Below are positions 35,347-51,860 of a stretch of DNA of 51,860 nucleotides, piece by piece (the stretch's first letter is position 1; every line of letters starts with the position of its first letter). Both the position numbers and the translations under genes were made by a program. This DNA is from a candidate division WOR-3 bacterium. GTDB lineage: Bacteria > Hydrothermota > UBA3073 > JACQXS01. The notes below the pieces were generated by a model. The model worked only from the letters and a program-made list of their open reading frames with translations, was not told the DNA's origin and did no database searches. Where the stretch lies: assembly GCA_023129235.1 (NCBI GenBank), contig JAGMCN010000046.1, forward strand, positions 1 to 51,860. Direction: 5' to 3'.

Positions 35347-35352
35347 AATAAT

Positions 35353-35640
35353 ATGCCTATTCAAACTAGCGTAGCTTTCTTTTTAATAGTAGCTCATTTC
35401 ATAGGAGACTTTAGTTTTCAGCCTTCTTGGTTATCAGCCGAGAAGAGAAAAGCAAAGCATGTTCTTCTAGGACATTGTATTATCTGTGCAGGTATAGTGG
35501 GAATAGTTTTAATATGGGCAGGTTTATTTGCTCCATGGAAACTATTTGCCTTGACTGGGATCCATTATATAATCGATTGGAAAAAACATAAGATTATAGA
35601 TAAACATGGATATAGTCCCCGGATAGGATTGGGTGATTAA
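35353..35640 (+). CDS. small integral membrane protein (DUF3307-like HxxxDFxxQ motif)
   Basis: Three hydrophobic segments and AHFIGDFSFQPSW. It is the only clearly membrane-embedded product in the island. Confidence 0.4.
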   Translation: MPIQTSVAFFLIVAHFIGDFSFQPSWLSAEKRKAKHVLLGHCIICAGIVGIVLIWAGLFAPWKLFALTGIHYIIDWKKHKIIDKHGYSPRIGLGD

Positions 35641-35683
35641 TTAAGTCATATAATATCAATTTTAATAATCGCTATAATTTAAT

Positions 35684-36721: not shown

Positions 36722-36724
36722 AAT

Positions 36725-37405: not shown

Positions 37406-38193
37406 AGTCTATCTTTCATATTATCCAAACAGGAATAACAGGAAAAGCTGGTGATTTTAAAAGAACTAGATTTGGAAAACCTTGGGTTAAAGAACGAATA
37501 GAGTTATTCAAGAAGTATAATCTTAATAGTCTATTAAATCAGGAGGATCGAAATTTTATTCACTGGATATCTTGGTGTGAAGCAGATCAGGAAAATGAAG
37601 ACGTAATTAAATTAGGTCAACATCTTAAAAAAATAGAATATCCTTATGTGTTCACTTTTAAAAGACTTCCTTATATTGATACTCATGGAAATAATAGAGA
37701 TCTAAAAGAACGAAGGGAGAGAATGTTACCGCTTATTAAGAAATTCTATAAAGATCAGGCTTATGTATATTTTACTGTATTAGATTCAGACGATCTATAT
37801 AGAAAAGATGCTATTAAGATAATTAAACAGACAGACCCGAATGATAAGAAAGCTATGTTTTTCCAGATAGGATATGGTTATAATTTTGATTCTAAAGACC
37901 TTTGTATATGGGTAGCAAAATGGAGCCCACCTTTCTTTACCTTTATTTTTCCTTCAGAAACTTTCTGGGATGTTGATAAACATAGCGAATGGATTAGACA
38001 TTATCATGTACATCATGATGTAGATCGGATTTTTAAAGGAGTAAAATTACCTAGAGACATGTTTATTCAAGGAATTCATGGAGGTAATGCTACGACTCGT
38101 TGGACAAATGCTTACCGACAACGTATTATTATAGATGAAGATCAAAAAGCCGGGATCTTAAAGGATTTCGGAATTCATTATGCCAAAGAATAA
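37402..38193 (+). CDS. GT-A fold glycosyltransferase (GT2 / rhamnosyltransferase-like)
   Basis: DxD motif in FTVLDSDDLYRKDAI. N-terminal RFGKPWVKERIELFKKYNLNSLLNQEDRNFIHWI resembles the R..LF..y.LPSl..Qt...F.w block of the GT2-related family. Confidence 0.5.
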   Translation: MKSIFHIIQTGITGKAGDFKRTRFGKPWVKERIELFKKYNLNSLLNQEDRNFIHWISWCEADQENEDVIKLGQHLKKIEYPYVFTFKRLPYIDTHGNNRDLKERRERMLPLIKKFYKDQAYVYFTVLDSDDLYRKDAIKIIKQTDPNDKKAMFFQIGYGYNFDSKDLCIWVAKWSPPFFTFIFPSETFWDVDKHSEWIRHYHVHHDVDRIFKGVKLPRDMFIQGIHGGNATTRWTNAYRQRIIIDEDQKAGILKDFGIHYAKE

Positions 38194-39100
38194 GTACGCT
38201 ATTATAATGACGTCTACAAGCGGACTCCTTCCAGGAGTCAACGCAGTTTTAAATGGATTAGATTACTATGATAACAAGGGATTTGATTTTTATCTTATAA
38301 ATGATTTTGAAAGAGCTGGGAAAAAAGATTATTTAGAGCAGACGAAATTGTTTAATTTTCCAGTAATAAGTCTTAAGCTTAGTGAGTTTGGACGGAAATT
38401 AACATTTCCGAAAAAGAAAAGAAGTGGTTGGCAAGTAAGATTTTATAGATGGGAATTAGCTAATCAATTAGCTGATTCTTATGATGCCATTTTAGTTATA
38501 GATGCTGATATGGCAGTCACCAATAATATAATGCAATATTTTAAAATTGCAGCTGATACTGGATATATTATAGGAGTAAATAATCCTGTTGGTTATTCCC
38601 TTGAAGGCTTAAAAGAAAAAGGATGTGATGTTTTAAGAGGAGCATCTACTCCTCCTATACATTGCATGCCTTTATTCTTTGATGGCAAAAAATGGAAAAA
38701 GTTATTAGATCTTTGTTGGAAGATAGGAGTAACTGAGGATTGGGGAGACATGTCAAGTCTAGTTAAAGCGATGTGTCAAATGGATATTTTTGATCAAGTT
38801 TATCGTCTTCCTAATTATCTTTGGATCCAGACATGGTTTTACCATGATGGAATAGAAATGAAACAAGCAGGTCCTAAAGAGTATCTCTTGTATGGAAAAG
38901 AGAGAATTAATATGGTGCATGGCAGATGGTGGATCCAGAGTGTTTGTGCAAAATGGGAAGGAATTAAAGAACCAGAACTTGTTAGATTTGGTAAAGGAAA
39001 TACCAGAGCGATTTGGGAAACATTTAAACGTTTAAATACTACTCATAAAATTAAATTAGATTGGGGTCCTTATTCCTGGTATAAGGATGAAAAGAAATGA
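38180..39100 (+). CDS. GT8-like nucleotide-diphospho-sugar transferase (paralog A)
   Basis: YAIIMTSTSGLLPGVNAVLNGL... and DxD in ILVIDADMAVTNN. Paralogous to the 39840 product. Confidence 0.45.
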   Translation: MPKNKYAIIMTSTSGLLPGVNAVLNGLDYYDNKGFDFYLINDFERAGKKDYLEQTKLFNFPVISLKLSEFGRKLTFPKKKRSGWQVRFYRWELANQLADSYDAILVIDADMAVTNNIMQYFKIAADTGYIIGVNNPVGYSLEGLKEKGCDVLRGASTPPIHCMPLFFDGKKWKKLLDLCWKIGVTEDWGDMSSLVKAMCQMDIFDQVYRLPNYLWIQTWFYHDGIEMKQAGPKEYLLYGKERINMVHGRWWIQSVCAKWEGIKEPELVRFGKGNTRAIWETFKRLNTTHKIKLDWGPYSWYKDEKK

Positions 39101-39867
39101 TTCAAGATTTTAAACAAAAGAAGCTAGTTGAATATTTAAAAGATGGCCAAAAGGTTTTAATTAGATTTGGTCATGGACTAGGTGATACAATTCTGTTTAT
39201 GCCTATCTTTGAAAAACTTAAATCATTATATCCAACGGTTCATTTCGATTTATATATTGAATCAGGTCAGGAAGAGATTTGGTCGTCAATTAAAAACAAA
39301 GATGCACCAGGATATGACTTAGTATTTTCACTTAACTTTCCAATGTCAGAAGGTGGAATACATACAAAACCTGAGAAGTGTTGTATAGATGAAATAGGAA
39401 TACAGCCGATAACTGATACAGCAAAATTACCTAAAAAAGATTCTCCTATTGTAGCTGTTCATTTTCAAGGCACAGCTTTACCAGGATCAGTTAGCTGTCC
39501 AGCTTTAATTGCTTATCAAATTTGGGAAGAAATTAAAGATTGCAATAAAATTCCAGTAGAGACTCATTATCAACATGTCTTTCATAATCCAGCCAATAGA
39601 AAATATAGCTTTATAAATGTAACTGCAAGAGATCTTAAGGCTAGTTTATCCAGCTTATTTGGTTTAATCCAGCATTCATGTGCTTTCATAGGGATTGCGT
39701 CAGGGCCTTTTGTAGTAGCACTCGCTTCAATTCCGGATAGGACTTTGTATTTAGAGAAGGCACATAAGCTTAAAACTTATTCTACAAAACAAATAGCGAC
39801 AGTCGATATTAATAATTATCAAAGCGGAGGAGTAAAAAAATGGCTTCAAAGTTTGCCTGGATCATAG
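39097..39867 (+). CDS. second GT9 heptosyltransferase-like protein (short)
   Basis: VLIRFGHGLGDTILFMPIFEKLKSLYPTVHFDLYI and SLFGLIQHSCAFIGIASGPFVVALAS match the GT9 N- and C-terminal signature blocks. Confidence 0.5.
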   Translation: MIQDFKQKKLVEYLKDGQKVLIRFGHGLGDTILFMPIFEKLKSLYPTVHFDLYIESGQEEIWSSIKNKDAPGYDLVFSLNFPMSEGGIHTKPEKCCIDEIGIQPITDTAKLPKKDSPIVAVHFQGTALPGSVSCPALIAYQIWEEIKDCNKIPVETHYQHVFHNPANRKYSFINVTARDLKASLSSLFGLIQHSCAFIGIASGPFVVALASIPDRTLYLEKAHKLKTYSTKQIATVDINNYQSGGVKKWLQSLPGS

Positions 39868-40766
39868 CAGGCTCTTCAAATTATATACCAGGAATAACAG
39901 CGTTTATGAATAGCGCTCGGGCTTTAGGACATAAGGAAGATATTATCTTACTTTCCTTTAGGTTGCCAGATGAGTTTCTTAAAGAAGTTCAAGAAAAGAT
40001 TGGAAATGTAAGGATAGTTAATATTCAGGGAGAAGATCAGGTAAGAGGAACTGCAATTGAAAGGTTTAGAGTAGCAGTAGAAATGGGAAAAGAATATAAA
40101 GCAATTTGTCTTTTAGATGCTGATATGTTTTTAACTGCTAACTGTGATTTATTTTTTAGAATTGCAGAGGCTGGCTTTATAGTCACTGGGTCAAATGGAA
40201 TGATTATTAATTTTAACAAAGCTTATCAGAAACAATATAATTGTTTTCTTGAGAAAGATGAATGGCCTTATCCAAAAGTTCATACATCAGCACCGATCTT
40301 TTTAGGACCTAAACATTTAGATTGGTTTGAACGTTTATATAATAGTAGACGGATTGATAGTTGGGATGACTTTCTCTATTTAAATCTATTAGGAATTAAG
40401 ATGGGTAAGTATAAAGATATGATTGTTTTACCTCCTTATGTCTTTACAGGAATCCATCATTTTGGAGTGAAGCCAGTTACGGGTTGGATGAATAAAAACG
40501 GAATGATTTTATCCCGGACAGAAGAAGTAATTTATATAGCACATGGTAAGTTCTGGGATAAAGGATGGTATACAGGATTAATGGAGCCTATGGAAAGATA
40601 TTATAAGGATGAACAGCTTGGTAAGAGACAGAAGGAAAGAGGATTATACTCAAGAAAAGTAATGATGGACTGTTTCTTAGAATACTTTAATGGTCCTTAT
40701 TTAAAAGGAGATCCAGAGCCTCTAGACTGGTATTTTAAAAAGAATAAAAAAAATGGCAAATCATAG
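39840..40766 (+). CDS. GT8-like nucleotide-diphospho-sugar transferase (paralog B)
   Basis: FAWIIAGSSNYIPGITAFMNSA... and DxD in ICLLDADMFLTAN. Same block order as the 38180 product. Confidence 0.45.
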   Translation: MASKFAWIIAGSSNYIPGITAFMNSARALGHKEDIILLSFRLPDEFLKEVQEKIGNVRIVNIQGEDQVRGTAIERFRVAVEMGKEYKAICLLDADMFLTANCDLFFRIAEAGFIVTGSNGMIINFNKAYQKQYNCFLEKDEWPYPKVHTSAPIFLGPKHLDWFERLYNSRRIDSWDDFLYLNLLGIKMGKYKDMIVLPPYVFTGIHHFGVKPVTGWMNKNGMILSRTEEVIYIAHGKFWDKGWYTGLMEPMERYYKDEQLGKRQKERGLYSRKVMMDCFLEYFNGPYLKGDPEPLDWYFKKNKKNGKS

Positions 40767-41874
40767 AGATCGACCGGTAGGTTATCAATACTTTAAAATT
40801 CTTAAGGATCATCTTGGATCCTTAGATAAAATATTTAATGGAAAGCTAATTTATCCACGGCAGATTGAAATTCATCTACCGGCAGATCATAAGAAATCTT
40901 GTAATTTTAATTGTTATTATTGCCAGGGTAGAATACTCAAACAACCTCTTGTCCCTTGGGAATTAGATGCATTAGATTTGATACGTGAGTTATCAGGAAA
41001 GATTCCGTATTATATCTACGGAGGTGCTTATTCTGAACCAATGCTAAATCCTTACATGATGACTTTCTTACATGTAACGAAACGTTATGGAGCAAATTTT
41101 GGTATCCATACGAATGGCTCATATCTTAAAATTCTAGAAAAAGCACAGGGCTGGATTACAGAACTATGTCGTATAGCTACAGACAAAAGAGATTATCTTT
41201 CAATCAGTTTAGATGCTGGAAATGTAGAAAGCCATAAGAAAACGAAAGGTCTTAGGAAGAATTGGTATGATGAAATTATTCAAGGAATTAGAATGGCTAT
41301 TAAAATTCGAGGGAATAAAGATTATCCTGCTATTCGGGTCTGTTATTTAATGAATGAATTTAATTCTTCTTTAGAGGAGATTAAAAATATTGTTGAATTA
41401 ATGAGAGATATTAAAGTGGATTCCTTAAGATTTTCTATTCCATACGATTTATATGGTAAAGATTTTAAGATAGTTAAACAATATAAAGAAAGAGTAGAAA
41501 TGAAAAGAAAAGATTCCTATCAAGAAAGATTAAAACCCTATCTCTCTTTAGACCTTAAAGAAAAGCCTTATATCTTTTTCATATCCCCGGAATCACAAGA
41601 TGTTGAAAAGATGTGTTTCAAACAATGTATATATAACTATTATCAGATTACGATAGGCGCCGATGGTAATATTTATCGTTGTTCAAGCACTGCTACTCCT
41701 TCTTTCCCAGCAAATTGCTTAGGAAAATTTACTGGGGATGTTGAGGAATTTCAAGAAATGATTCTTAGGAATCATAATAAAGATTGGAAACCAGAAACAT
41801 GTTTTAAAGCTGGGGCAAGATGTAATCGAATGGCTCTGGAAATTAATAAAGAATGGGAAAAAATTAATGAATAA
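40753..41874 (+). CDS. radical SAM enzyme with Cys-rich C-terminal (twitch/SPASM-like) region
   Basis: CxxxCxxC = CNFNCYYC (C50/C54/C57, nt 40900..40923). C-terminal CIYNYYQITIGADGNIYRC fits the Cx9-15Gx4C half-motif of SPASM/twitch domains. Further Cys lie in CLGKF...CFKAGARC. Confidence 0.7.
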   Translation: MANHRDRPVGYQYFKILKDHLGSLDKIFNGKLIYPRQIEIHLPADHKKSCNFNCYYCQGRILKQPLVPWELDALDLIRELSGKIPYYIYGGAYSEPMLNPYMMTFLHVTKRYGANFGIHTNGSYLKILEKAQGWITELCRIATDKRDYLSISLDAGNVESHKKTKGLRKNWYDEIIQGIRMAIKIRGNKDYPAIRVCYLMNEFNSSLEEIKNIVELMRDIKVDSLRFSIPYDLYGKDFKIVKQYKERVEMKRKDSYQERLKPYLSLDLKEKPYIFFISPESQDVEKMCFKQCIYNYYQITIGADGNIYRCSSTATPSFPANCLGKFTGDVEEFQEMILRNHNKDWKPETCFKAGARCNRMALEINKEWEKINE

Positions 41875-42754
41875 AATTACAATAGCTCAAATAGGATGTG
41901 GTTATTGGGGAAAGAGATTACTCCGCTATATTATAGAGAGTGATAAGTTTAATGTTAAATATGTTTGTACTAAAGGAGATGATCTGACTCAAATTTGGAA
42001 TGATAAGGAAGTAAAAGCAGTTGTGATCGCTACTCCAATTAAAACTCATTTTGCTATTGCAAGAAAAGCTATAAGAGCAAATAAAGATATCTTGTGTGAG
42101 AAACCTCTATGTCAACAATTAAACCAAGTTAGATGTCTTCAGCGTCAATTAACTCGTGCAGATAGAAAACTATTAACAGAATGGACATATACTTTTTCAA
42201 AAGGTTTGATAAAAGCTAAAGAAATTATAGATATTGGAAAGATAGGGGGACTTGAATCTATAGAAATGTCCTTGAAATATGCAGGTCGTTTTCTAGATTA
42301 TAATGTATATTGGCTTTTAGGATCACATCTCTTATCTATTCTTGATATGTTTGTTCCAATAGCTAGTTTAGAGTTTCGAAAAATAGATCTTATAAGACAT
42401 GGAAAACGAACAGAGACTGGAATGATTAGATTTTGGAATGAAAAATTAAAAGGGAATATTACAGTCAGTCTTAATTATCCATTAAAGGATATGAGTGTAA
42501 TTTTCTATGGATCAAGAGGAACCCTGGTATTTTCATCAATGAGAGAACCGACGATTCAATATAATTGTTATGTAAAAGACGAAGGAGTTTTAGGAGATCA
42601 ACTTATAACGGAAGAAAAATTCATGTCTTTTGATGAGAAGAATAATTTAAAGCATGCTGTAAATTATTTTTATGATTTTCTACAAGGAAAAGCAGAAGGC
42701 AATCTCGAGAGATCATTTCAAATAACTAAAGTTTTAAGTCAAATACATGAATGA
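41867..42754 (+). CDS. Gfo/Idh/MocA-family NAD(P)-dependent sugar oxidoreductase
   Basis: ITIAQIGCGYWGKR (Rossmann fold) and the family-diagnostic EKPL motif (ILCEKPLC). Confidence 0.65.
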   Translation: MNKITIAQIGCGYWGKRLLRYIIESDKFNVKYVCTKGDDLTQIWNDKEVKAVVIATPIKTHFAIARKAIRANKDILCEKPLCQQLNQVRCLQRQLTRADRKLLTEWTYTFSKGLIKAKEIIDIGKIGGLESIEMSLKYAGRFLDYNVYWLLGSHLLSILDMFVPIASLEFRKIDLIRHGKRTETGMIRFWNEKLKGNITVSLNYPLKDMSVIFYGSRGTLVFSSMREPTIQYNCYVKDEGVLGDQLITEEKFMSFDEKNNLKHAVNYFYDFLQGKAEGNLERSFQITKVLSQIHE

Positions 42755-43343
42755 TAATCATCTTCAAGAGACTATTAGATTAGCAAATGCAGTAGGAGAT
42801 CCTAAACATGCTGTAACTGCTAATGAAGGAATCTTCTTATATAATAGAGCAAAGGAATGTTCAAAAGGAGTTATAGTAGAAATAGGTTCTTGGAAAGGAA
42901 GATCAGCAGTTTGGTTGGGTAGAGGTTCTCAAGCTGGATTTAAAAGAGAAGTTTATGCTGTAGATCCTCACACTGGTTCTCCAGAACATCATAGACTTTA
43001 TGGTAAGATATGGACTCTTCCAGTCTTTCAAAAGAATATTGAAAGAGCTGGGCTTTCAAATATAGTAGTCTCTTTAGTAAAGACTTCTGAAGAAGCTTCT
43101 AAAGATTGGAAAGAACCTATTGAGTTATTATTTATAGACGGCCGTCATGATTATAAATATGTAAAACAAGATTATGATTTGTGGAGTCGATTCTTAATTC
43201 CAGGTGGAATAGTAGTTTTCCATGATTCTATTAGATGGCCAGGTCCTAAATTAGTAGTTGATGAAGTAATATATAAGACTAGAGATTTTATGAAGGTAGG
43301 TATTATTAATTCAATAACCTGGGCTGTGAAAAAAAAGACTTGA
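42747..43343 (+). CDS. class I SAM-dependent methyltransferase (Methyltransf_24 / sugar O-methyltransferase-like)
   Basis: VVEIGSWKGRSAVWLG (motif I), LLFIDGRHDY and VVFHD are typical of the CmcI/TylF-like O-methyltransferase group. Confidence 0.6.
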   Translation: MNDNHLQETIRLANAVGDPKHAVTANEGIFLYNRAKECSKGVIVEIGSWKGRSAVWLGRGSQAGFKREVYAVDPHTGSPEHHRLYGKIWTLPVFQKNIERAGLSNIVVSLVKTSEEASKDWKEPIELLFIDGRHDYKYVKQDYDLWSRFLIPGGIVVFHDSIRWPGPKLVVDEVIYKTRDFMKVGIINSITWAVKKKT

Positions 43344-43367: not shown

Positions 43368-43377
43368 GAGAGTAGAA

Positions 43378-44319: not shown

Positions 44320-47300
44320 ATGTTTGAACATATATTAAAAAAATTAGAATCATGGAAGCCAATACATCTGTGTTGGTGGTTTGAGAAACACGGAAAGCCT
44401 ATTCCTAAATATTTTATTGGACAGTCTTCCTCGAGTTCTTCATCTTCTTCTTCTTTTTCAAGCTCCTCTTCCTTTTCAACAGGGGCTTGGCTTGATGGAT
44501 GGAGATATCGAATTAAGATAACTATCCCAGACAACCGAAAAGAAGCAGATTTATCTTATTTTCCAGTAACTATATTTTTAAACGATAATGCTGGAATAAA
44601 CAGTGATGATGTCACCGCTATTTTTGATGAGGTGGGAAGTTCTTCTCAAAAAATTGCTCTTACTAAAGCTGATGGAACAACTCAGCTTTACTGTGAGGTA
44701 GAAAGCTGGAATAGTGGAACTGAAAAAGCTGTAATCCATGTTAGTAAATCAGATTGGAATTTAATTGATAGTTGCGATACGGTTTTTTATTTATATTTTG
44801 ATAATAGACAAGCAGATAATACGACTTATATAGGCGATGATCCAGATGATGCCGCGACTCATGCCGTATGGAATAGTGGTTATAAATTTGTTTCTCACAT
44901 GAAGGATTCTGGATCCTCTGCAATTAAGGATTCTACAGATAATAATAATGATGGGACAAAGAAAGCGGCAAACCAACCTAATCAAGTTGCTGGTAAAATA
45001 GCTAGAGCTCAAGATTTTGATCTTGCGAATGAGGAATATATAGATATGGATTCAACCACCGCACCAATGACAGGATTATTAGTAGAGGGCTGGATAAATC
45101 CTGAGAGTGATGGATCGGCTATGACTATAGCTGCAGATATGTATGATACGGCTGCATGGGCAGATTGTTCCTGGTACGTAATGAGAAATACAGATGATAA
45201 AATTTTTACTATTTCTTATAAAGCTGGTGGAGCCTTATGGAGTCTCGTATCAACTACTGCAATTACGGCTGCAGATGGTTGGAAACATAGTGCTGTAAGA
45301 TGGAATGGAAGTAATGTTTATATTTATTTAAACGGAGTTCAGGATGAAACTGCAGTTGCTTCAGGAGTGATGAGTGCTCATGCTTCAAGAGAATTTACGA
45401 TAGGAAGACAAAAAGATGCTGCTACTTATAAACAATATTATGATGGAATAATAGATGAATTTAGAGTTTCAAATACTGGAAGAAGTGCAGCTTGGGTAAA
45501 AGCTTCTTACTATGAAGGAGCAGATGACTTTGTTTATTTTTCTGCTGCGGAGGGAAATCCTTCATCATCATCATCTTCAAGTTCTTCACAAGAATCTATT
45601 TCTTCTTGCTCATCTTCATTTAGTTCTAGCAGTTCTAGCAGTTCTTCTTCAAGTAAATCTTCTTCTTCATCACTTAGTGCTGTTTGTGGAACTGGACTTT
45701 ATGAAAAACAACAAGATCGAAGTGTTTTACTAGCTAGTCTGTATGGAGTAAATTGGTTATGTCAAACTTTTACTCCTCAAGAAGCTCATTTAATTAAATG
45801 TGTAAGACTTGTTTTTGACAGAGTCGGGGCGGGTGATTTTACGATTACAGCTAGTATTAAAGCAGTAGATGGTAATCATAAACCAACAGGACCAGTTTTA
45901 TGTAGTGGAACGATGAGCACTGATGATATATCTGGAAATGATTGGTATACGATTAATTTAGGAAATGGAACTAATTTATCAGCAGCTACTGAGTATGCAA
46001 TTGAATTTAAATGCCCGGATGCTGATAATGATAATCGCCCAAGAGCATATGGAAGAGATTCTGATGTTTATGCAGGAGGAAAATGTTTTGTATCTCCAGA
46101 TAGCGGAGGAACATGGAATATTCAAACCTGGGATTTTGCCTTTGAGGATTGGGGTCAGGAAACTTCCTCAAGTAGTTCTTCTAGTTGCTCTAGTTCTTTT
46201 AGTTCATCTAGCTCATGTTCTTGTTCTTCATCAGCGAGTTGTGTTCATGATACCCAGCATGATAATTGTGTTTTAGATGACAATGATGTCATATCAATAG
46301 CTGACACTAAATGGTTAGCACAATCGTTTACTCCATCAATTTCCTATCATATTTGTCGCGTAAAAGTTAAACTTGAAAAAAATGGAACACCGCCAACTAC
46401 CACTACTTTTGGCATTCGGAACACAGATGGTAATGGTCATCCAACTGGAGCTGATTTATGTTCAGGGGTCTTAGGACCTGGGCCTGCAGCTGGATGGATA
46501 GAGATTATTTTAGGAGCTGGTTATGATCTTATTCAAGGTACAAAATATGCAGTAGTTGGAAGAGCTCCGTCTGGAGTAGGTGGTGATTGTTGGCGATGGA
46601 GATTTGATAATACAGCCGGAAGTTATACCAGAGGAAATGCACTGGATTCAGATGATTCGGGAGGAACCTGGGGTGACTTAGCTCAGGGTGATGAAGATTG
46701 GATGTTTGATTTATATGGAGATACTGGATCTTCATCTTCATCAAGTTCGAATTCAAGTTGTTCTAGTTCTTTTAGTAGTTCTTCTAGTAATAGTTCATTT
46801 AGTTCTAGTTCATGCTCAAGCAGTTTTTCATCTAGTTCATCTTCTAGTTCATCTTTTAGCAGTAGCTCTTGTTCTTCTAGTTTTTCTTCCTCTAGTTGCT
46901 CGAGCTCATTTAGCAGTAGTAGTTCATGTTCTAGTAGCTTTAGTTTCTCAAGTTGCTCTTCTTCATTTAGTAGTAGCTCTTGTAGTTCATCATTTAGTTC
47001 CAGTAGCAGTTCTTTTAGTTCATCTTCAAGCTGTAGCTCATCCTTTAGTAGCAGCTCATGTTCAAGCAGTTTTTGTTCTTCTAGTAGCTCATTAAGTTTT
47101 TCATCAAGTTGTTCTTGTAGCTCATCTTTTAGCTCTAGCTCTTCCAGCTTTAGCTCTTCTAGTTGCTCAAGCTCTTTCTCTTCTAGCTCCTGTAGCAGTA
47201 GCTTCAGTAGCTCAAGCTCAAGTTTTAGTAGTTCTTCTTCTTCAAGCTTTAGTTCTAGTAGTAGTAGCTTCTCATCTAGTTCAAGTTTCAGTTCTAGCTC

Positions 47301-48930
47301 CTCAAGTTTCTCTTCTTCTAGTAGCTGTTTAAGTTCTTCTTCAAGCTCCTGTTCATCATCGTTTAGCTCATCCTCAAGCTGTAGTAGTTTTAGCAGTTCA
47401 TCCTGTAGCTCGTCTTTCAGTAGCTCTTCATGTAGTAGTTCATTTAGTTCTTCAAGTTCTTCAAGTTCATTTTCTTCTAGCTCCTACAGTAGTTGTAGTA
47501 GTTCTAGTAGTCTTAGTCTTTCATCCTCATCAAGTTCAAGTTGCTCATCATCTTTTAGCTCTTCTAGTTGTAGTTCCTCATTTAGTAGTAGCTCAAGCTC
47601 AAACTCTTTCAGTAGCAGCAGTTCAAGTTCATCTTTTAGCTCAAGCTCAAGTAGCTTTTCAAATTCAAGTAGCGAATCAAATAGTAGTTCAAGTTCATCA
47701 ATAAGTATAAGCTCATCAAGTAGTAGTGAATCAAAGAGCTCATCATCAAGTTCTAAATCAATATCAAGTAGCTCAAGCTCTCAATCAACAAGTATTTCCA
47801 GTTCCTCAAGTTGTTCAAGTTCTTTCAGTTCAAGTTCGGAATCAATTTCGACTTCAAGTAGTTCATCATCACAATCAATTTCCTCCAGTAGCAGTTCTGA
47901 ATCAACAAGTTTAAGCTCTAGTAGCTCAAGCCAAAGTTTAAGCAGTTCTAGTTCTTCGGAAAGTATTTCAACTTCAATTTCTTCTAGTAGTAGCTCGTTT
48001 AGCTTTAGCTCAAGCTCGAGTAGCTTTAGTTCTAGTTCAAGCTCCTCAAGTTTAAGTTCAAGCTCAAGTTCTGAAAGTACTTCATTAAGTAGCAGTTCTG
48101 AATCAATTTCAAGTTCTTCATCTTCTGAGAGCATTTCATCAAGTTCTAGTTCATCTTATAGTTCAGAGTCCATGAGCTTAAGTAGCTCTTCGGAATCCCA
48201 AAGCTCATCAAGCTCATCTGAATCTATAAGCTGTAGTTCATCAAGCGAATCGATATCAAATAGTTCAAGTTCTCAATCGATAAGTAATTCTAGTTCATCT
48301 AGTAGTTCTAGTTCTTTAAGCTCAAGCTCAGAATCAACCTCGATCTCTAGTAGTTCTTGTTCATCATCAATCTCATCTAGTAGTAACTCAGAGTCACTAA
48401 GTTCTAGTTCTAGTAGTCAAAGTGAGAGCTTCAGCAGTAGCTGTTCTTCAAGCTGTAGTTCAGAATCAATAAGTAAAAGTAGCTCCTCTAGCAGTTCCGA
48501 ATCCGAAAGCTTAAGTAGCTCTTCGAGTAGTTCTCAGTCAATTTCAAGTTGCTCTAGTAGTTCAGGATATCCTACTTCATGGTGCATAGCTTGGGGAGAA
48601 CAGAACCCAGGAGCGGGTCATACTCCCGAGGGATGGTCAACTTGGTCAGATGGAACAGGTGGAAATCCCACCATTTTAGGAGATCCAGATTGGGGACAAT
48701 TACAGTTAGTATTAAATGAAGTTGCTAATAGTCCAATACATCATTTTGGATCTTTAAATTCGTCGGTCACTGTAGTTTCAAATATTAATGTAGGATCTGT
48801 AGAAGTTTATTATCGTCAGTCAGCCACGGCATTTGGACAGGATGATTTGGCTCCAGCTTGGGTATTAAAAATTACAGGGACTATTCATTTAAATCAATCT
48901 TATCGGCAGATAAGATTAAAAGGAGCATAA
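44320..48930 (+). CDS. fibre/adhesin-like protein 1: N-terminal anchor, DUF2341-like and LamG (concanavalin-like lectin) domains, two ~155-aa beta modules, 612-aa Ser-rich tract, C-terminal domain
   Basis: DGWRYRIKITIPDN...LSYFPVTIFLND...FYLYFDN fits the DUF2341 pattern. KDSTDNNNDGT...LLVEGWINPE...WKHSAVRWNGSNVYIYLNG...YDGIIDEFRVSN fits LamG/Laminin_G_3. Ser linkers lie at about 44425..44480, 45560..45680 and 46161..46239. Confidence 0.8.
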   Translation: MFEHILKKLESWKPIHLCWWFEKHGKPIPKYFIGQSSSSSSSSSSFSSSSSFSTGAWLDGWRYRIKITIPDNRKEADLSYFPVTIFLNDNAGINSDDVTAIFDEVGSSSQKIALTKADGTTQLYCEVESWNSGTEKAVIHVSKSDWNLIDSCDTVFYLYFDNRQADNTTYIGDDPDDAATHAVWNSGYKFVSHMKDSGSSAIKDSTDNNNDGTKKAANQPNQVAGKIARAQDFDLANEEYIDMDSTTAPMTGLLVEGWINPESDGSAMTIAADMYDTAAWADCSWYVMRNTDDKIFTISYKAGGALWSLVSTTAITAADGWKHSAVRWNGSNVYIYLNGVQDETAVASGVMSAHASREFTIGRQKDAATYKQYYDGIIDEFRVSNTGRSAAWVKASYYEGADDFVYFSAAEGNPSSSSSSSSSQESISSCSSSFSSSSSSSSSSSKSSSSSLSAVCGTGLYEKQQDRSVLLASLYGVNWLCQTFTPQEAHLIKCVRLVFDRVGAGDFTITASIKAVDGNHKPTGPVLCSGTMSTDDISGNDWYTINLGNGTNLSAATEYAIEFKCPDADNDNRPRAYGRDSDVYAGGKCFVSPDSGGTWNIQTWDFAFEDWGQETSSSSSSSCSSSFSSSSSCSCSSSASCVHDTQHDNCVLDDNDVISIADTKWLAQSFTPSISYHICRVKVKLEKNGTPPTTTTFGIRNTDGNGHPTGADLCSGVLGPGPAAGWIEIILGAGYDLIQGTKYAVVGRAPSGVGGDCWRWRFDNTAGSYTRGNALDSDDSGGTWGDLAQGDEDWMFDLYGDTGSSSSSSSNSSCSSSFSSSSSNSSFSSSSCSSSFSSSSSSSSSFSSSSCSSSFSSSSCSSSFSSSSSCSSSFSFSSCSSSFSSSSCSSSFSSSSSSFSSSSSCSSSFSSSSCSSSFCSSSSSLSFSSSCSCSSSFSSSSSSFSSSSCSSSFSSSSCSSSFSSSSSSFSSSSSSSFSSSSSSFSSSSSFSSSSSSFSSSSSCLSSSSSSCSSSFSSSSSCSSFSSSSCSSSFSSSSCSSSFSSSSSSSSFSSSSYSSCSSSSSLSLSSSSSSSCSSSFSSSSCSSSFSSSSSSNSFSSSSSSSSFSSSSSSFSNSSSESNSSSSSSISISSSSSSESKSSSSSSKSISSSSSSQSTSISSSSSCSSSFSSSSESISTSSSSSSQSISSSSSSESTSLSSSSSSQSLSSSSSSESISTSISSSSSSFSFSSSSSSFSSSSSSSSLSSSSSSESTSLSSSSESISSSSSSESISSSSSSSYSSESMSLSSSSESQSSSSSSESISCSSSSESISNSSSSQSISNSSSSSSSSSLSSSSESTSISSSSCSSSISSSSNSESLSSSSSSQSESFSSSCSSSCSSESISKSSSSSSSESESLSSSSSSSQSISSCSSSSGYPTSWCIAWGEQNPGAGHTPEGWSTWSDGTGGNPTILGDPDWGQLQLVLNEVANSPIHHFGSLNSSVTVVSNINVGSVEVYYRQSATAFGQDDLAPAWVLKITGTIHLNQSYRQIRLKGA
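45685..46160 (+). repeat. fibre module copy A1 (~155 aa; ..W.CQTFTP....H...CVRL...R.G.G.FTIT.SIKAVDGNH.PTG..LCSG..)
   Basis: Aligns along its full length with 49063..49541 in the second fibre gene. Confidence 0.7.
46240..46722 (+). repeat. fibre module copy B1 (CVHDTQHDNC...WLAQSFTPS...IRNTDGNGHPTG...DLYGD)
   Basis: Aligns with 51378..51860 in the second fibre gene. The last 132 nt are identical. Confidence 0.8.
46591..46722 (+). repeat. 132-nt exact direct repeat, copy 1
   Basis: Identical by eye to 51729..51860. One T/C mismatch lies immediately upstream (46590 vs 51728). Further upstream the two copies are clearly diverged. Confidence 0.85.
46729..48564 (+). repeat. 612-codon serine-dominated low-complexity tract
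   Basis: In frame within fibre 1. The first ~310 codons use almost only S/C/F (SSCSSSFSSSS-type periodicity). After about nt 47660 the pattern switches to S/E/I/Q/T/L (SSSSSESISSSSSSQSTS type). Ser codons alternate between AGY and TCN. Confidence 0.9.
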
Positions 48931-48932
48931 AT

Positions 48933-51860
48933 ATGTTAGACAGATTTAGAAAATTTATAAGAGAGTGGAAACCAATACATCTCTGTTGGTGGTACCAAAA
49001 GAAGGGAAAGCAAATCCCAAGGTATTTTATTGGACAGTCTAGCTCATCTTCTTCAAGCGGTCCTTGTGGAGGAGCTACTCTTTATGAACATCAGAATACA
49101 GTTTGGAATGAAGTACTATCTAGCATTTGGGGATCTGCTTGGTGCTGTCAGACCTTCACTCCTTCGATAGCTCATACTGTTACTTGTGTAAGATTAGCTC
49201 TTGATAGAATAGGAATCGGTAATTTTACTATCACAGTTAGCATTAAAGCAGTGGATGGAAATCATCATCCGACTGGAGTTGCCTTATGTTCCGGAACTAT
49301 ATCTACAAATAATTTAGGAGACCAATGGGATGAAATTTCAATGGGAGCAGGGGCTAACTTATCTGCTTCTACCGAATATGCAATCGAAGTTAAATGCCCA
49401 GATGCTACTGATGGTAATCAAGCGAGAGGATATGGAGATTCAACAGGAGACTACGCTGGTGGTTATGGCCAGTGGTCAAATGATAGCGGTGATACATGGA
49501 ATGATACAGTTTGGGATTATGCTTTTGAAGAGTATGGTGATACGTCTTCGAGTTCAAGTTCATGTTCATCTTCTTTTTCTTCAAGTTCTTCCAGCTTTAG
49601 TAGTTCTTCTAGCTCAGAATCTAGTCAAAGTAGCAGTTCAAGTTCCGAACAGTGTTTTGATTATACAAAATTTGAAAATCATACGACGCCTGATAATTCT
49701 AACTTTACCATTGGAGGTAATATTCAAATTGCACAAACATTTACACCTTCAATAAGTCATGTAATAAACTGTGTAAATGTAAAGATTGGAACCGAAGGAA
49801 CTCCGGTTGGAAATTTAGATGTTCAGATTCAAGATACTGATGGAGCTGGTAAACCAAATGGGAATGTTTTAGCTTCTGCTTCTATTACTGTAGCTAGTAT
49901 AGTAGCACATGAGTGGCGAGGAATAGTTTTAAATAGCGGAAGTTTTTTATCAGCAGCTTCTAAATATGCATTAGTTTTGAAAGCACCAAATATGCCTGGA
50001 CAAATAGGAGATAGGGTGTTTTGGAAATCAGATAGTACAGAAGGTTATGCTGCAGGTCAAGCCTGTTTTACTAATGATGCAGGAGCCAATTGGGCTCTGG
50101 AATCTAGAGATTGTCTTTTTGAAGAATGGGGAAATCAGAGTTCTTCAAGTTCTTCAAGTTCTAGTTCAATCCTTAGTTGTTCATCTTCTTCATCTTCAGG
50201 AAGTTTTTCAAGCAGTTCATCATCGTCGGCAGTTCCTTGTCCTATTGATTGTGAACTTTGCTATGATTGTTACTTTGTTACAGTTCCCGAGTTCATTTGT
50301 GATTTTAATACATGTGGGGGTCAGGCTATTTTAGAAAGAAGCGGAAATTGTGAATGGGAAGATTTAGACGGAGGCGATCTTGGAAATATGATGGTCTTTC
50401 TATATTGTTCGGAAGGCTTTTGGATTTTAGAAATATGTTGTGACAGTATAATAAACACTTGTATTTATAAAAAGGCTCTAGTAGAAGAAGGGGAATGCCC
50501 CGAAGGTTGGTATGAATTTGATCTGGATGCTTCGAATTGTGGAGCAAATTGTCCAGCAGGTCCATTGCAATTAACAGGTGATGAATGTCCATCCTCTAGT
50601 TCAAGCTGTTCAAGTTTAAGCTACTCAAGCTCCAGTTCATGTAGTTCGTCATATTCATGGAGCTCGACATCTTCAAGTTTTTCTAGCTCTTCGAGTAGTC
50701 TGAGCAGCAGTAGTTCCTGCTCAAGTAGTATTAGTTCTAGCAGTTCTTCATCAGGTTGTATTTCATGTTCTTCATCTTCTTCAGCATCCTGTTGGACTTG
50801 TCCTTCAGTAGGTGCTTGTGAAGCTCAATGTAGCCCATGTTATAGTTTCGACTACCCTTTATCTTGGTGTGATGGAAATTATATTGGTGGAAATATAATT
50901 TTAGATAATCGTTATATAGGTTTTTGTTCTTGGTATGCTTGGGGAAAAGGAACTTATTGGAACACAGATGCAAGTATTATTTGTAATGCGAACTGGTGGA
51001 CTTTAACAGTTTCTCCAAGTATAAATCCAGATGCCAACTGTATTTATAAAAAATGTTGTGATGAAGAAGATGATTGCCCAGATGGAATTTATGCTTTAGA
51101 TCCTTGGCTTTCAACTTGTCCGGAAGGCTGCCCAAGTCAAACTATTGAAGTGAGTGAATCTTCATGTTTTTCCTCAAGCTCGAGTAGTAGTTCTTGTAGT
51201 TCTTCTTCCTATAGCTCGTCCAGCTCTTTTTCTAGCAGTTCTAATTCATCTTGTTCTTCATCTTCATACTCTAGTTCAAGCAGTCTCAGCCTGAGTAGCT
51301 CAAGCTCAATTTCACTTAGTAACAGTTTATCTAGTTCTAGTAGTGTTTCTTTCTCGTCTTCTAGCTCTTCGATAAGTTGTGTTTATGATACTCAACAGGA
51401 TCATTGTATTTTAGATGATAACGATGTGATTTCTATAGCAGGAACAAAATGGCTAGCTCAATCTTTTACACCGTCTGTTTCTTATAGAGTTTGTAGAGTA
51501 AAAGTAAAAGTTGATAAGAATGGAACTCCTCCAGCGGTTACTACTTTCGGAATTCGAAATACGGATGGGAATGGTCATCCTATAGGATCTGATTTATGTT
51601 CAGGAATTTTAGGTCCTGGACATGCAGCAGGCTGGATAGAAATTATTTTAGGCGCAGGCTATAGTCTTTCTCAAGATATAAAATATGCTTTAGTAGCTCG
51701 AGCTCCAAGTACAGATAGCGGTGATTGCTGGCGATGGAGATTTGATAATACAGCCGGAAGTTATACCAGAGGAAATGCACTGGATTCAGATGATTCGGGA
51801 GGAACCTGGGGTGACTTAGCTCAGGGTGATGAAGATTGGATGTTTGATTTATATGGAGAT
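48933..51860 (+). CDS. fibre/adhesin-like protein 2 (3'-partial; absent from the supplied ORF track)
   Basis: I translated ATG 48933 codon by codon to nt 51860: 976 codons with no stop. AGGAG lies 7 nt upstream. The N-terminus MLDRFRKFIREWKPIHLCWWYQKKGKQIPRYFIGQSSSSSSS is paralogous to the fibre 1 N-terminus. It contains three beta modules, Ser linkers and two Cys-rich modules. Confidence 0.85.
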   Translation, partial: MLDRFRKFIREWKPIHLCWWYQKKGKQIPRYFIGQSSSSSSSGPCGGATLYEHQNTVWNEVLSSIWGSAWCCQTFTPSIAHTVTCVRLALDRIGIGNFTITVSIKAVDGNHHPTGVALCSGTISTNNLGDQWDEISMGAGANLSASTEYAIEVKCPDATDGNQARGYGDSTGDYAGGYGQWSNDSGDTWNDTVWDYAFEEYGDTSSSSSSCSSSFSSSSSSFSSSSSSESSQSSSSSSEQCFDYTKFENHTTPDNSNFTIGGNIQIAQTFTPSISHVINCVNVKIGTEGTPVGNLDVQIQDTDGAGKPNGNVLASASITVASIVAHEWRGIVLNSGSFLSAASKYALVLKAPNMPGQIGDRVFWKSDSTEGYAAGQACFTNDAGANWALESRDCLFEEWGNQSSSSSSSSSSILSCSSSSSSGSFSSSSSSSAVPCPIDCELCYDCYFVTVPEFICDFNTCGGQAILERSGNCEWEDLDGGDLGNMMVFLYCSEGFWILEICCDSIINTCIYKKALVEEGECPEGWYEFDLDASNCGANCPAGPLQLTGDECPSSSSSCSSLSYSSSSSCSSSYSWSSTSSSFSSSSSSLSSSSSCSSSISSSSSSSGCISCSSSSSASCWTCPSVGACEAQCSPCYSFDYPLSWCDGNYIGGNIILDNRYIGFCSWYAWGKGTYWNTDASIICNANWWTLTVSPSINPDANCIYKKCCDEEDDCPDGIYALDPWLSTCPEGCPSQTIEVSESSCFSSSSSSSSCSSSSYSSSSSFSSSSNSSCSSSSYSSSSSLSLSSSSSISLSNSLSSSSSVSFSSSSSSISCVYDTQQDHCILDDNDVISIAGTKWLAQSFTPSVSYRVCRVKVKVDKNGTPPAVTTFGIRNTDGNGHPIGSDLCSGILGPGHAAGWIEIILGAGYSLSQDIKYALVARAPSTDSGDCWRWRFDNTAGSYTRGNALDSDDSGGTWGDLAQGDEDWMFDLYGD
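49063..49541 (+). repeat. fibre module copy A2
   Basis: ..AWCCQTFTPSIAHTVTCVRLALDRIGIGNFTITVSIKAVDGNHHPTGVALCSG...WDYAFEEYGD parallels copy A1. Confidence 0.7.
49653..50138 (+). repeat. fibre module copy B-variant
   Basis: CFDYTKFENH...IQIAQTFTPSISHVINCVNVKIG...IQDTDGAGKPNG...CLFEEWGNQ has the same block order as the A and B modules but is more diverged. Confidence 0.6.
50235..50591 (+). repeat. Cys-rich module copy 1 (~119 aa)
   Basis: PCPIDCELCYDC...CDFNTCGG...NCEWED...YCSEGFWILEICCDSIINTCIYKKALVEEGECPEGWYEFD...NCGANCPAGP...DECP. Confidence 0.65.
50790..51167 (+). repeat. Cys-rich module copy 2 (~126 aa)
   Basis: CWTCPSVGACEAQCSPCYSFD...WCDG...FCSWYAWG...IICNANWWTL...ANCIYKKCCDEEDDCPDGIYALD...TCPEGCPSQ...SSC. 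It shares the CIYKK...E..CP.G.Y..D...C..CP backbone with copy 1. Confidence 0.65.
51378..51860 (+). repeat. fibre module copy B2 (runs to the window edge)
   Basis: CVYDTQQDHCILDDNDVISIAGTKWLAQSFTPSVSYRVCRVKVKV...IRNTDGNGHPIG...DLYGD. Positions 51729..51860 are identical to 46591..46722. Confidence 0.8.

What the first reader, a model, noticed from the sequence alone, without database searches (positions are those of the whole stretch)
48933..51860. Large ORF missing from the supplied track: second fibre gene running off the window
Manual codon-by-codon translation from ATG 48933 gives 976 sense codons to the last base of the window. An AGGAG sits 7 nt upstream, one of the very few Shine-Dalgarno-like sites here. 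The track instead lists only short off-frame ORFs in this interval (49330..49755, 50047..50334, 50326..50592 on the - strand, and 50737..50973 on the - strand). The product is clearly paralogous to fibre 1, so the window probably opens onto a multi-gene fibre family.
Basis: seen in the sequence. Interest (0 to 1): 0.6.

Follow-up and report, generated by a model that had tools for sequence, protein, structure and literature searches.

The report
Second modular polyserine phage fibre gene
The open frame at the window's end is the first two-thirds of a real 1,433-residue phage gene, the second of four neighbouring "beads-on-a-string" fibre-like genes that all start with the same short tag, a tag that also heads proteins on at least 100 other uncultivated phage contigs, often beside sugar-adding enzymes.

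Summary
ATG 48933 opens 976 sense codons to the last base. The gene was absent from the track only because closed-ORF listing drops frames that run off the end.

The window is a whole contig. Contig C212 overlaps both of its ends exactly, giving a circle of about 89.6 kb. The joined gene is 1,433 aa. An ENA scaffold carries the identical gene with no mismatch over 12.3 kb. The contig broke at a 132-bp exact repeat shared with fibre 1.

It is the second of four tandem paralogues, F1-F4. All begin with a near-invariant tag, WKPIHLCWWF-x5-IP-x-Y-F/L-IG. This tag heads all 13 IMG/VR hits and at least 90 of the first 120 metagenome hits.

F2 is built from:
- the tag
- four copies of a 155-aa beta-sandwich module, which is not in Pfam or NCBIfam but has 10,670 representative relatives and a fold like carbohydrate-binding modules and phage baseplate domains
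- two Cys-rich modules
- a C-terminal domain shared with F1
- polyserine linkers, 29% of the protein

Tagged proteins with such linkers tend to lie next to glycosyltransferase genes.

Best reading: a virion-displayed, multivalent glycan-binding fibre with probably O-glycosylated linkers. Virion attachment and glycosylation are inferred, not shown.

The parts
48933..51860 (+). 5' part (976 of 1,433 codons) of fibre-like gene F2. It continues on contig C212 (C212:36474-37847, minus strand = L004:18474-19847), with the stop at joined coordinate 53234.
48933..49037 (+). N-terminal tag, aa 1-35. The core is WKPIHLCWWYQKKGKQIPRYFIGQ. It is shared by F1-F4 and by at least 100 other phage contigs.
49071..49541 (+). 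Module A copy 1, a 155-aa beta-sandwich with the 'QTFTPS' motif; 57% identical to F1's first copy.
49659..50135 (+). Module A copy 2.
   Evidence: weak PHROG 5986 match
50226..50600 (+). Cys-rich module C1 (15 Cys in 125 aa). No Pfam or NCBIfam family.
50784..51170 (+). Cys-rich module C2 (15 Cys in 129 aa), 35% identical to C1.
51387..51860 (+). Module A copy 3, 85% identical in protein to F1's second copy.
51729..51860 (+). 132-bp exact repeat, copy 2. This is the cause of the contig break and also forms the overlap with contig C212.
46591..46722 (+). 132-bp exact repeat, copy 1, inside fibre 1.
49542..49658 (+). Example of a polyserine linker. The others in the window are about 49038-49070, 50136-50225, 50601-50783 and 51171-51386. 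Linkers make up 422 of F2's 1,433 residues. They use mixed Ser codons and have no exact DNA repeat longer than 23 nt.
44320..48930 (+). Paralogue F1 ('fibre 1', 1,536 aa): tag, LamG-containing module, two A modules, a 621-aa polyserine tract and the shared C-terminal domain.
48921..48925 (+). AGGAG 7 nt upstream of the ATG, formed by the K-G-A codons of F1's conserved C-terminus.
32026..43343 (+). Upstream cassette of sugar-nucleotide synthesis and glycosyltransferase genes. It holds a heptose-phosphate adenylyltransferase-like gene, an epimerase, a GT8, a rhamnosyltransferase-like gene, a radical SAM gene, a GFO/IDH/MocA oxidoreductase and a Methyltransf_24 gene. It is the proposed modifier of the linkers.

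Best explanation
The ORF is the 5' two-thirds of a real 4,302-nt gene, F2 (1,433 aa), of an uncultivated phage whose genome assembles as a circle of about 89.6 kb. F2 is the second of four tandem paralogues. Each starts with a short, near-invariant N-terminal tag, followed by interchangeable globular modules joined by polyserine linkers.

Proposed mechanism:
- The tag docks the protein onto the virion (inferred).
- The linkers act as long flexible spacers and are O-glycosylated by the phage's own sugar/glycosyltransferase cassette just upstream (inferred from recurrent gene neighbourhood).
- The four beta-sandwich A modules, the two Cys-rich modules and the C-terminal domain bind host-surface polysaccharide multivalently (inferred from fold).
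- The four paralogues offer different heads: LamG in F1, Cys-rich modules in F2, a trypsin-like protease in F3 and an unknown domain in F4.

Shown here: the gene, its full length, its paralogy, its domain map, the spread of the tag and of module A, and the association with glycosyltransferase genes. Not shown: presence in the virion, glycosylation, and the ligand.
For: Gene and full length:
- The frame is open for 976 codons.
- C212 overlaps both contig ends exactly, by 132 bp and 150 bp.
- An ENA scaffold matches the join over 12,263 bp with 0 mismatches and calls the same 1,433-aa gene.

Family:
- Four tandem genes carry the tag.
- F1 and F2 also share a C-terminal domain (66% identical) and two module pairs (57% and 85%).

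Phage context:
- The window has a major head protein, a giant 4,793-aa protein and a tail-fibre-like protein.
- A relative with a 43%-identical head protein carries two A modules inside a conserved 1,020-aa tail-region protein.

Module A:
- The AF2 model has pLDDT 87.5.
- The best PDB fold matches are phi812 baseplate chains, virus capsid-associated proteins and carbohydrate-binding modules.
- The best viral matches are annotated tail, minor-tail or virion-associated proteins, with TM-score up to 0.80.
- The profile finds 10,670 relatives among database representatives.

Tag:
- All 13 IMG/VR pattern hits and at least 90 of the first 120 metagenome hits are true tags, 10-76 aa from the start of the open frame, followed by unrelated domains. 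A conserved N-terminus with variable distal parts is the usual pattern of receptor-binding proteins.
- In G007 one tagged gene follows a tape-measure-like gene.
- In several small phage contigs the tagged gene follows the head genes.

Glycosylation:
- Every phage examined with a linker-rich tagged protein (this one, G002, G003, G007 and G011) has glycosyltransferase genes just upstream.
- In metagenome loci of 6 kb or more, 8 of 11 linker-rich loci have a glycosyltransferase homologue in the flank, against 3 of 15 linker-poor loci (Fisher p = 0.015).
- Homologues of the C-terminal domain always follow a poly-Ser or poly-Thr/Ser linker.
Against: - There is no proteomic, structural or expression evidence that F2 is in the virion.
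- No trimerisation element, beta-helix or other classical fibre shaft was recognised.
- Linkers tens to hundreds of residues long are, to my knowledge, not described for receptor-binding proteins.
- The closest relative found (G001, 76% complete) has no tagged gene. No conserved docking partner was found across tag-bearing phages.
- In this phage the four genes are separated from the core tail genes by a lysis-like gene and the sugar cassette.
- Some tagged homologues (G011, P0189) are almost entirely Ser/Ala/Pro repeat with no evident binding domain. That fits a glycan-bearing 'hair' better than a receptor binder.
- The sugar cassette could instead modify DNA or the host envelope.
- The glycosyltransferase association rests on small, partly non-independent samples and on a home-made query panel.
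- The C-terminal domain could not be modelled (pLDDT 46).
Confidence: 0.6

Rival explanations
1. Virion 'hair' or decoration rather than a receptor-binding fibre. The tagged proteins coat the capsid or tail with glycosylated, mucin-like filaments. These would shield the particle or stick it to environmental polymers. Comparable cases are T4 Hoc-type decoration, the glycan shield of mycobacteriophage capsids, and the glycosylated fibrils of giant viruses.
For: - Homologues such as P0189 and P0190 are mostly Ser/Ala/Pro repeat with little or no globular head.
- F1 carries a 621-residue serine tract.
- The module A fold also matches capsid-associated proteins of PBCV-1 and cyanophage A4.
- The tag occurs in phages with unrelated structural genes, which would suit a generic binding surface.
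- Virion glycosylation as a shield is documented in mycobacteriophages (Freeman et al. 2023, PMC10527164, as cited in PMC12619734).
Against: - F1-F4 carry many lectin-like or enzymatic modules (LamG, seven A modules, a protease), which are typical of host-recognition proteins.
- One tagged gene in G007 lies in the tail module after a tape-measure-like gene.
- A modules sit inside a conserved tail-region protein in the sister phage.
Confidence: 0.22
2. Not a virion protein. The tagged proteins are made in the infected cell and act there or on its envelope, for example as surface glycoproteins for superinfection exclusion or as secreted adhesins or enzymes. On this reading the tag is a targeting or enzyme-recognition peptide, for instance for the neighbouring glycosyltransferases or methyltransferase-like enzyme.
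For: - Several homologues have a moderately hydrophobic stretch before the tag (for example G003 begins MKLIAFIVNFLTLSIGSF...).
- A small SAM-methyltransferase-like gene lies directly upstream of the tagged gene in 16 of 86 loci. The tag could be an enzyme-recognition element.
- The genes sit with a metabolic cassette rather than with the tail genes in this phage.
Against: - By inspection of the sequences, F1-F3 have no signal-peptide-like or transmembrane segment. The tag is preceded by only 11 mostly charged residues.
- The module A fold recurs in phage tail and baseplate proteins.
- In small phage contigs the tagged gene lies inside the structural gene block.
Confidence: 0.12
3. Artefact. 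Either the long frame is open by chance in serine-codon-rich DNA, or the join to C212 is an assembly chimera at the 132-bp repeat.
For: The contig ends exactly in a repeat that also occurs in fibre 1. Low-complexity DNA can keep frames open.
Against: - 71% of F2 is non-linker sequence with conserved domains that have thousands of homologues.
- The ENA scaffold spans the join with 0 mismatches and calls the same 1,433-aa product.
- The joined protein ends in a C-terminal domain 66% identical to F1's, and is followed 2 nt later by the next tagged gene.
- The alternative pairing at the direct repeat would give two circles, one of only about 5.1 kb.
Confidence: 0.03

Closest known systems
Phage receptor-binding proteins with a conserved N-terminal anchor and exchangeable distal domains (for example T7-like gp17, or the multiple tailspikes of CBA120, K1-5/SP6 and PhiK64-1-type phages; from general knowledge)
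   Same: The N-terminus is conserved while the distal modules are unrelated. There are several paralogues per genome in tandem. Distal parts include lectin-like and enzymatic domains. The module A fold matches baseplate and tail proteins.
   Different: The anchor here is only about 24 residues and nearly invariant across otherwise unrelated phages. No trimeric shaft or beta-helix was recognised. Domains are strung on long disordered polyserine linkers. Attachment to the virion is untested.
Polyserine linkers of modular carbohydrate-active enzymes (Saccharophagus degradans, Teredinibacter, Cellvibrio; PMC2386152, PMC2699552, found)
   Same: Runs of Ser join independent carbohydrate-binding-like beta-sandwich modules in a beads-on-a-string layout. 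Ser codons are mixed.
   Different: These are phage proteins, not secreted bacterial enzymes. By inspection they have no signal peptide, and no CAZy catalytic domain was detected. The linkers contain periodic Cys and Phe. The proteins carry a phage-specific N-terminal tag.
Serine-rich repeat glycoproteins of Gram-positive bacteria (GspB, Fap1, PsrP) with dedicated glycosyltransferases (general knowledge)
   Same: Long Ser-X repeat tracts lie next to glycosyltransferase genes, most clearly in homologues P0189 and P0190 (SASPSKSASASE repeats). An adhesive role is presumed.
   Different: By inspection there is no long aSec signal peptide. There is no LPXTG motif. SecA2/Y2 genes were not looked for. 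The setting is a phage genome, and the N-terminal tag is different.
Virion glycosylation in mycobacteriophages (Freeman et al. 2023, PMC10527164; cited in PMC12619734)
   Same: Phage-encoded glycosyltransferases lie next to the genes of the structural proteins they modify. The target is a Ser/Thr-rich extension.
   Different: In mycobacteriophages the targets are short C-terminal extensions of capsid and tail-tube subunits, and glycosylation was shown by experiment. Here the targets would be long internal linkers of accessory fibre-like proteins, and glycosylation is only inferred.
Pfam Laminin_G_3 / carbohydrate-binding-module-type beta-sandwich lectin domains
   Same: F1 has a true Laminin_G_3 domain. 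Module A has a jelly-roll fold matching CBM6/22/36-like and PHR domains.
   Different: Module A matches no Pfam or NCBIfam model by sequence. It matches only PHROGs 5986 and 877, both of unknown function.

Membership tests
Phage tail fibre / receptor-binding protein | The protein is a component of the virion tail | not testable with these tools
   No proteomics or structure exists for this uncultivated phage.
Phage tail fibre / receptor-binding protein | Conserved N-terminal attachment region with variable distal region | tested here: met
   The tag is near-invariant in F1-F4, in all 13 IMG/VR hits and in at least 90 metagenome hits. The downstream domains are unrelated.
Phage tail fibre / receptor-binding protein | Gene lies in the tail or structural module | tested here: inconclusive
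   In this phage the genes follow a lysis-like gene and the sugar cassette, not the tail genes. In G007 copy b the gene follows a tape-measure-like gene, and in small contigs it follows head genes.
Phage tail fibre / receptor-binding protein | Trimeric fibrous or beta-helical shaft | tested here: inconclusive
   None was recognised by Pfam, PHROGs or PDB sequence search. Only one module was modelled.
Phage tail fibre / receptor-binding protein | Receptor-binding or depolymerising distal domain | tested here: inconclusive
   The module A fold resembles carbohydrate-binding modules and baseplate domains. F1 has LamG and F3 has a protease. No ligand is known.
Module A domain family (uncurated; PHROG 5986/877-like) | 155-aa beta-sandwich with Q-[ST]-F-T-P, P-x-G, Y-A, Y-x-x-G and D-x-x-F motifs | tested here: met
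   F2 has four copies, three of them in the window. The alignment has 21 invariant columns. The profile search finds 10,670 representatives at E<=1e-3. The AF2 model has pLDDT 87.5.
N-terminal WKPIHLCWWF tag family (undescribed) | W-K-P-[ILV]-H-x-C-x-W-[FY]-x(5-7)-[IV]-P-x-Y-[FL]-I-G within about 80 aa of the N-terminus | tested here: met
   F2 residues 12-35 fit. The family is defined.
Serine-rich repeat adhesins (SRRP) | aSec signal peptide, LPXTG anchor, SecA2/Y2 locus | tested here: not met
   By inspection F2 has no signal-peptide-like N-terminus. F2 has no LPXTG. Polyserine ORFs occur only on the two phage contigs of the bin. A SecA2/Y2 locus was not searched for.
Polyserine-linked CAZymes | Secreted enzyme with a CAZy catalytic domain plus carbohydrate-binding modules joined by polyserine | tested here: not met
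   Polyserine linkers and carbohydrate-binding-like modules are present. No catalytic CAZy domain was detected, and by inspection there is no signal peptide.
O-glycosylated phage virion proteins (mycobacteriophage type) | Glycan attached to the protein by phage-encoded glycosyltransferases | not testable with these tools
   Only gene neighbourhood supports this.

The most novel reading that the evidence does not exclude
The 24-residue WKPIHLCWWF...IP.YFIG tag marks an undescribed, widespread class of phage 'glyco-fibres'. In this class a portable N-terminal peptide docks the protein onto virions of otherwise unrelated phages, or targets it to the modifying enzymes. Long Ser/Ala/Pro/Thr linkers are O-glycosylated by co-located phage sugar cassettes. 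Lectin-like modules, including the large uncurated module A family, are shuffled between linkers. This phage has expanded the system to four genes.
Probability: 0.35. Interest if true: 0.75.

Novelty: new variant of a known kind. Interest (0 to 1): 0.55.

Why it matters
As a gene call this is routine: a partial ORF that a closed-ORF lister dropped. The complete gene is more useful, for four reasons.

- It exposes a compact N-terminal tag shared by phages with unrelated structural genes. If the tag is a docking peptide, it would be a natural handle for finding, and in laboratory phages for swapping, host-recognition proteins in uncultivated phages.
- It exposes a domain family with more than 10,000 representative sequences that is missing from Pfam and NCBIfam. 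Its fold suggests glycan binding.
- It shows a repeated link between Ser-rich linkers and phage-encoded glycosyltransferases. This would extend virion glycosylation, known experimentally from mycobacteriophages, to environmental phages and to fibre-like proteins.
- It completes the phage genome (about 89.6 kb) by joining two contigs of the bin.

Tried and rejected
- tblastn of F2 against 50,697 GenBank phage records: no match.
- Pfam on whole F2 and on each isolated module: nothing for module A, C1, C2 or the C-terminal domain. NCBIfam: nothing meaningful.
- PDB sequence search: nothing.
- Word-indexed protein search with the tag alone (residues 1-40): only the query itself. The DNA pattern scan was what found the family.
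- C-terminal domain: the IMG/VR scan found no relative. The AF2 model with 8 sequences was too poor to use (pLDDT 46), so no fold search was made.
- Search for a conserved docking partner: blastp of all phage ORFs against tag-bearing loci and clustering of flanking ORFs found none that is universal. The commonest real neighbours are a small methyltransferase-like gene and GT2 genes. Two large clusters looked like off-frame or antisense artefacts of the repeats and the tag.
- The closest relative, G001, has no tag, but it is only 76% complete.
- Recombination through repetitive linker DNA: rejected as an obvious mechanism, because linker DNA shares no exact repeat longer than 23 nt.
- SRRP adhesin reading: rejected. 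There is no LPXTG, by inspection no signal peptide, and the context is a phage.
- Host identity: the best GyrB match is only 62%, to a Candidatus Stahlbacteria MAG, so it stays unresolved. Binning of the phage contigs with this MAG does not prove the host.
- The ENA scaffold record could not be opened beyond the 12.3-kb locus.
- Literature searches for polyserine linkers in phage, and for glycosylated serine-rich tail fibres, found no description. Absence from this library is not proof of novelty.
Full report
**1. The observation**

Translating 48933-51860 on the + strand gives 976 residues and no stop. With open ends allowed, the ORF lister reports the frame as 48858..51860, 3'-open. So the gene was missing from the track because of a rule of the lister.

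AGGAG lies at 48921-48925, 7 nt before the ATG. It is made by the codons Lys-Gly-Ala that end fibre 1. The same position before the next gene reads AAGGTC, and only 3 of 27 genes checked have an SD-like site. It says little about translation.

ATG 48933 is the likely start. In F1, F2 and F3 the Met lies 11 residues before the conserved Trp of the tag. Both the F1/F2 and F2/F3 junctions have a 2-nt gap.

**2. Completing the gene**

The window is a whole contig, C198, of a 1.71-Mb, 256-contig, 62%-complete bin. The reverse complement of contig C212 (37,979 bp) starts with the window's last 132 bases and ends with its first 150 bases. The two contigs therefore close into a circle of 89,557 bp.

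The 132 bases also occur exactly at 46591-46722 inside fibre 1. That explains why the assembler stopped there. It is the only exact repeat of 40 nt or more among the fibre genes.

Across the join the frame continues for 457 more codons to a stop at joined coordinate 53234, giving 1,433 aa. An ENA scaffold from sample SAMN18200505 (ERZ23498683 scaffold_64, 94,673 bp) matches the joined sequence from 46668 to 58930 with no mismatch. Its gene calls include an identical 1,433-aa product, followed by 774-aa and 123-aa genes. I could not establish whether this scaffold was built from the same reads as the bin.

**3. The family**

Four genes in a row carry the motif W-K-P-[IL]-H-x-C-x-W near their N-terminus:
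- F1, 44320..48930, 1,536 aa
- F2, 48933..53234, 1,433 aa
- F3, 53237..55561, 774 aa
- F4, about 56307..57902, 531 aa

F1 and F2 also share several other parts:
- a 118-aa C-terminal domain, 66% identical
- two pairs of A modules, F2_A1/F1_A1 at 57% and F2_A3/F1_A2 at 85% identity, against 29-44% for all other pairs

F3 carries a trypsin-like protease with a GDSGG motif (PHROG 20754, E = 3e-29). F4 has one A module and an unassigned C-terminal domain. Polyserine ORFs occur only on these two contigs of the bin.

**4. Anatomy of F2**

| Residues | Part |
|---|---|
| 1-35 | N-terminal tag |
| 47-203 | Module A copy 1 |
| 243-401 | Module A copy 2 |
| about 432-556 | Cys-rich module C1 (15 Cys) |
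| about 618-746 | Cys-rich module C2 (15 Cys) |
| 819-976 | Module A copy 3 |
| 1014-1172 | Module A copy 4 |
| 1316-1433 | C-terminal domain |

C1 and C2 are 35% identical to each other. Serine-rich linkers make up the rest, 422 residues or 29% of the protein. They use all the common Ser codons and share no exact DNA repeat longer than 23 nt.

**5. Module A**

The seven copies align with 21 invariant columns. Pfam, NCBIfam and PDB sequence searches find nothing. PHROGs 5986 and 877, both of unknown function, match.

A profile search of 1.84 billion representatives finds 10,670 proteins at E<=1e-3 and 4,799 at E<=1e-10. Many hold several copies, in very varied architectures.

AF2 gives a confident all-beta model (pLDDT 87.5, pTM 0.85). 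Its best PDB matches are phi812 baseplate chains (E = 4e-8), capsid-associated proteins of PBCV-1 and cyanophage A4, the sandwich domain of carbohydrate esterases, PHR domains and CBM22/36/6. Its best viral matches are proteins annotated as tail, minor-tail or virion-associated, with TM-score up to 0.80.

The one related phage found has a head protein 43% identical and shares homologues of the portal, the giant protein and the tail-region proteins. It carries two A modules inside its 1,020-aa homologue of the window's 765-aa tail-region protein.

**6. The tag**

A degenerate DNA pattern for W-K-P-x-H-x-C-x-W-[FY] found 13 IMG/VR contigs. All 13 encode WKPIHLCWWF-x5-[IV]P-x-Y-[FL]-IG, 10-48 aa from the start of an open frame, followed by unrelated sequence.

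These records usually have one tagged gene; G007 has two. At least 90 of these pass a strict full-tag test, and about half are followed directly by Ser/Ala/Pro/Thr-rich repeats.

In small contigs the tagged gene follows terminase, portal, head and head-completion genes. In G007 one copy follows a tape-measure-like gene. No universal partner gene was found. A small SAM-methyltransferase-like gene lies directly upstream in 16 of 86 loci.

**7. Link to sugar genes**

In the window, 32026-43343 encodes:
- a methyltransferase fused to a heptose-1-phosphate adenylyltransferase-like domain
- a cupin
- a nucleotide-sugar epimerase
- a rhamnosyltransferase-like protein
- a GT8
- a radical SAM enzyme
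- a GFO/IDH/MocA oxidoreductase
- a Methyltransf_24 protein

In G011 (63 kb, terminal repeats) and G003 (46.6 kb, rated complete), the tagged proteins P0189 and P0190 consist largely of SAS/SPS repeats; in P0189 almost nothing else is present. Each lies directly downstream of a sugar gene cluster. In G011 the cluster holds GT2, GT1-like, RmlD-like and Methyltransf_24 genes. In G003 it holds GT2, epimerase/dehydratase, UDP-glucose-dehydrogenase-like, GHMP-kinase and Methyltransf_24 genes. GT2 genes also precede the linker-rich tagged genes of G002 and G007.

In metagenome loci of 6 kb or more, a glycosyltransferase homologue lies in the held flank of 8 of 11 linker-rich loci and 3 of 15 linker-poor loci (Fisher p = 0.015). 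This test has limits. It used a query panel of my own, the sample is small, the phages may be related, and two loci come from the same contigs as panel sources (G007 and G011).

Homologues of the C-terminal domain (P0183-P0188) all have the layout globular head, then poly-Ser or poly-Thr/Ser linker, then this domain.

**8. Interpretation**

The gene, its length and the family are secure. The most likely function is a virion-displayed, multivalent glycan-binding fibre, with linkers glycosylated by the adjacent cassette. I give this reading 0.6.

Three rivals remain:
- a non-receptor 'hair' or shield (0.22)
- a non-virion product whose tag is an enzyme-recognition or targeting peptide (0.12)
- an artefact (0.03)

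Arguments against the fibre reading:
- No shaft or trimerisation element was found.
- The tag is absent from the closest relative, which is incomplete.
- The genes lie apart from the tail genes in this phage.
- Some homologues have almost no globular domain.

Literature searches found polyserine linkers only in bacterial carbohydrate-active enzymes. They found no glycosylated serine-rich phage fibres. Virion glycosylation is documented for mycobacteriophage capsid and tail-tube proteins (PMC10527164, as cited in PMC12619734).

**9. Earlier notes of this scan**

These notes had already flagged F1's serine tract and the heptose/glycosyltransferase cassette. I used them as leads only. The cassette's content and its recurrence next to tagged genes were checked independently here.

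**10. Verdict**

This is a correct and useful catch. As a gene call it is ordinary. It is moderately interesting for what the complete gene reveals: a four-gene family, a portable N-terminal tag, a large uncurated domain family, and a repeated association of linkers with glycosyltransferase genes.

Noticed in passing
joined genome: C198 + reverse complement of C212: The two contigs overlap exactly at both ends (132 bp and 150 bp), giving a circle of 89,557 bp. An ENA scaffold of the same phage is 94,673 bp, which is 5,116 bp longer. That is close to the 5,138-bp spacing of the two 132-bp repeat copies, so the scaffold probably wraps around between them.
   Followed up: partly
C212:34147-36471 (-) = L004:16147-18471 (-): F3 (774 aa) is a tagged paralogue. 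It has a jelly-roll-like N-terminal module and a trypsin-like serine protease with a GDSGG motif (PHROG 20754, E = 3e-29). A fibre-like protein carrying a protease head is unusual.
   Followed up: partly
C212:31806-33401 (-) = L004:13806-15401 (-): F4's tag is preceded by about 30 residues instead of 11, with no Met at the position used in F1-F3. Its true start codon is uncertain.
   Followed up: no
joined 55566-55937 (L004:15771-16142, -): A 123-aa ORF between F3 and F4 has a globular N-terminal part and ends in a 26-residue polyserine/Cys tail. It has no tag. It may be another substrate of the same modification or a remnant.
   Followed up: no
F2 aa about 1253-1264 (on C212) and F3 aa 682-693: A short conserved island, IVN[IL]xDD[LV]xxCW, sits in the middle of the long C-terminal polyserine linkers of F2 and F3 but not F1. 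Its meaning is unknown.
   Followed up: no
window 43354-43803: A LAGLIDADG-like homing-endonuclease ORF lies between the Methyltransf_24 gene and the small membrane-protein ORF that precedes F1. The support is faint: a precomputed Pfam hit on a Logan contig and a homologue in the related phage.
   Followed up: no
L026:9163-9642, L010:1357-1881 (-), L109:3725-4264 (-), L110:3824-4342 (-): A 160-180-aa SAM-methyltransferase-like protein (motif VLxLGxxGGTVAGL) lies directly upstream of the tagged gene in several phages (50-65% identical to each other), and in 16 of 86 metagenome loci. It is absent from this phage. It may modify or chaperone the tagged protein.
   Followed up: partly
L025:9204-11336 (P0189) and L026:9639-12776 (P0190): The tagged proteins of two complete phage genomes consist largely of SASPSKSASASE-type repeats, hundreds of residues long. 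These resemble the repeat regions of Gram-positive serine-rich repeat adhesins.
   Followed up: partly
window 29372-30493: A 373-aa protein has weak papain-like peptidase (C1) and PG_binding_1 matches. It is a candidate endolysin lying between the tail genes and the sugar cassette.
   Followed up: no
G000 contig C193:8221-10104: GyrB of the bin is at most 62% identical to any species-representative genome. The best match is a Candidatus Stahlbacteria MAG. The putative host lineage is deep-branching and unresolved.
   Followed up: partly
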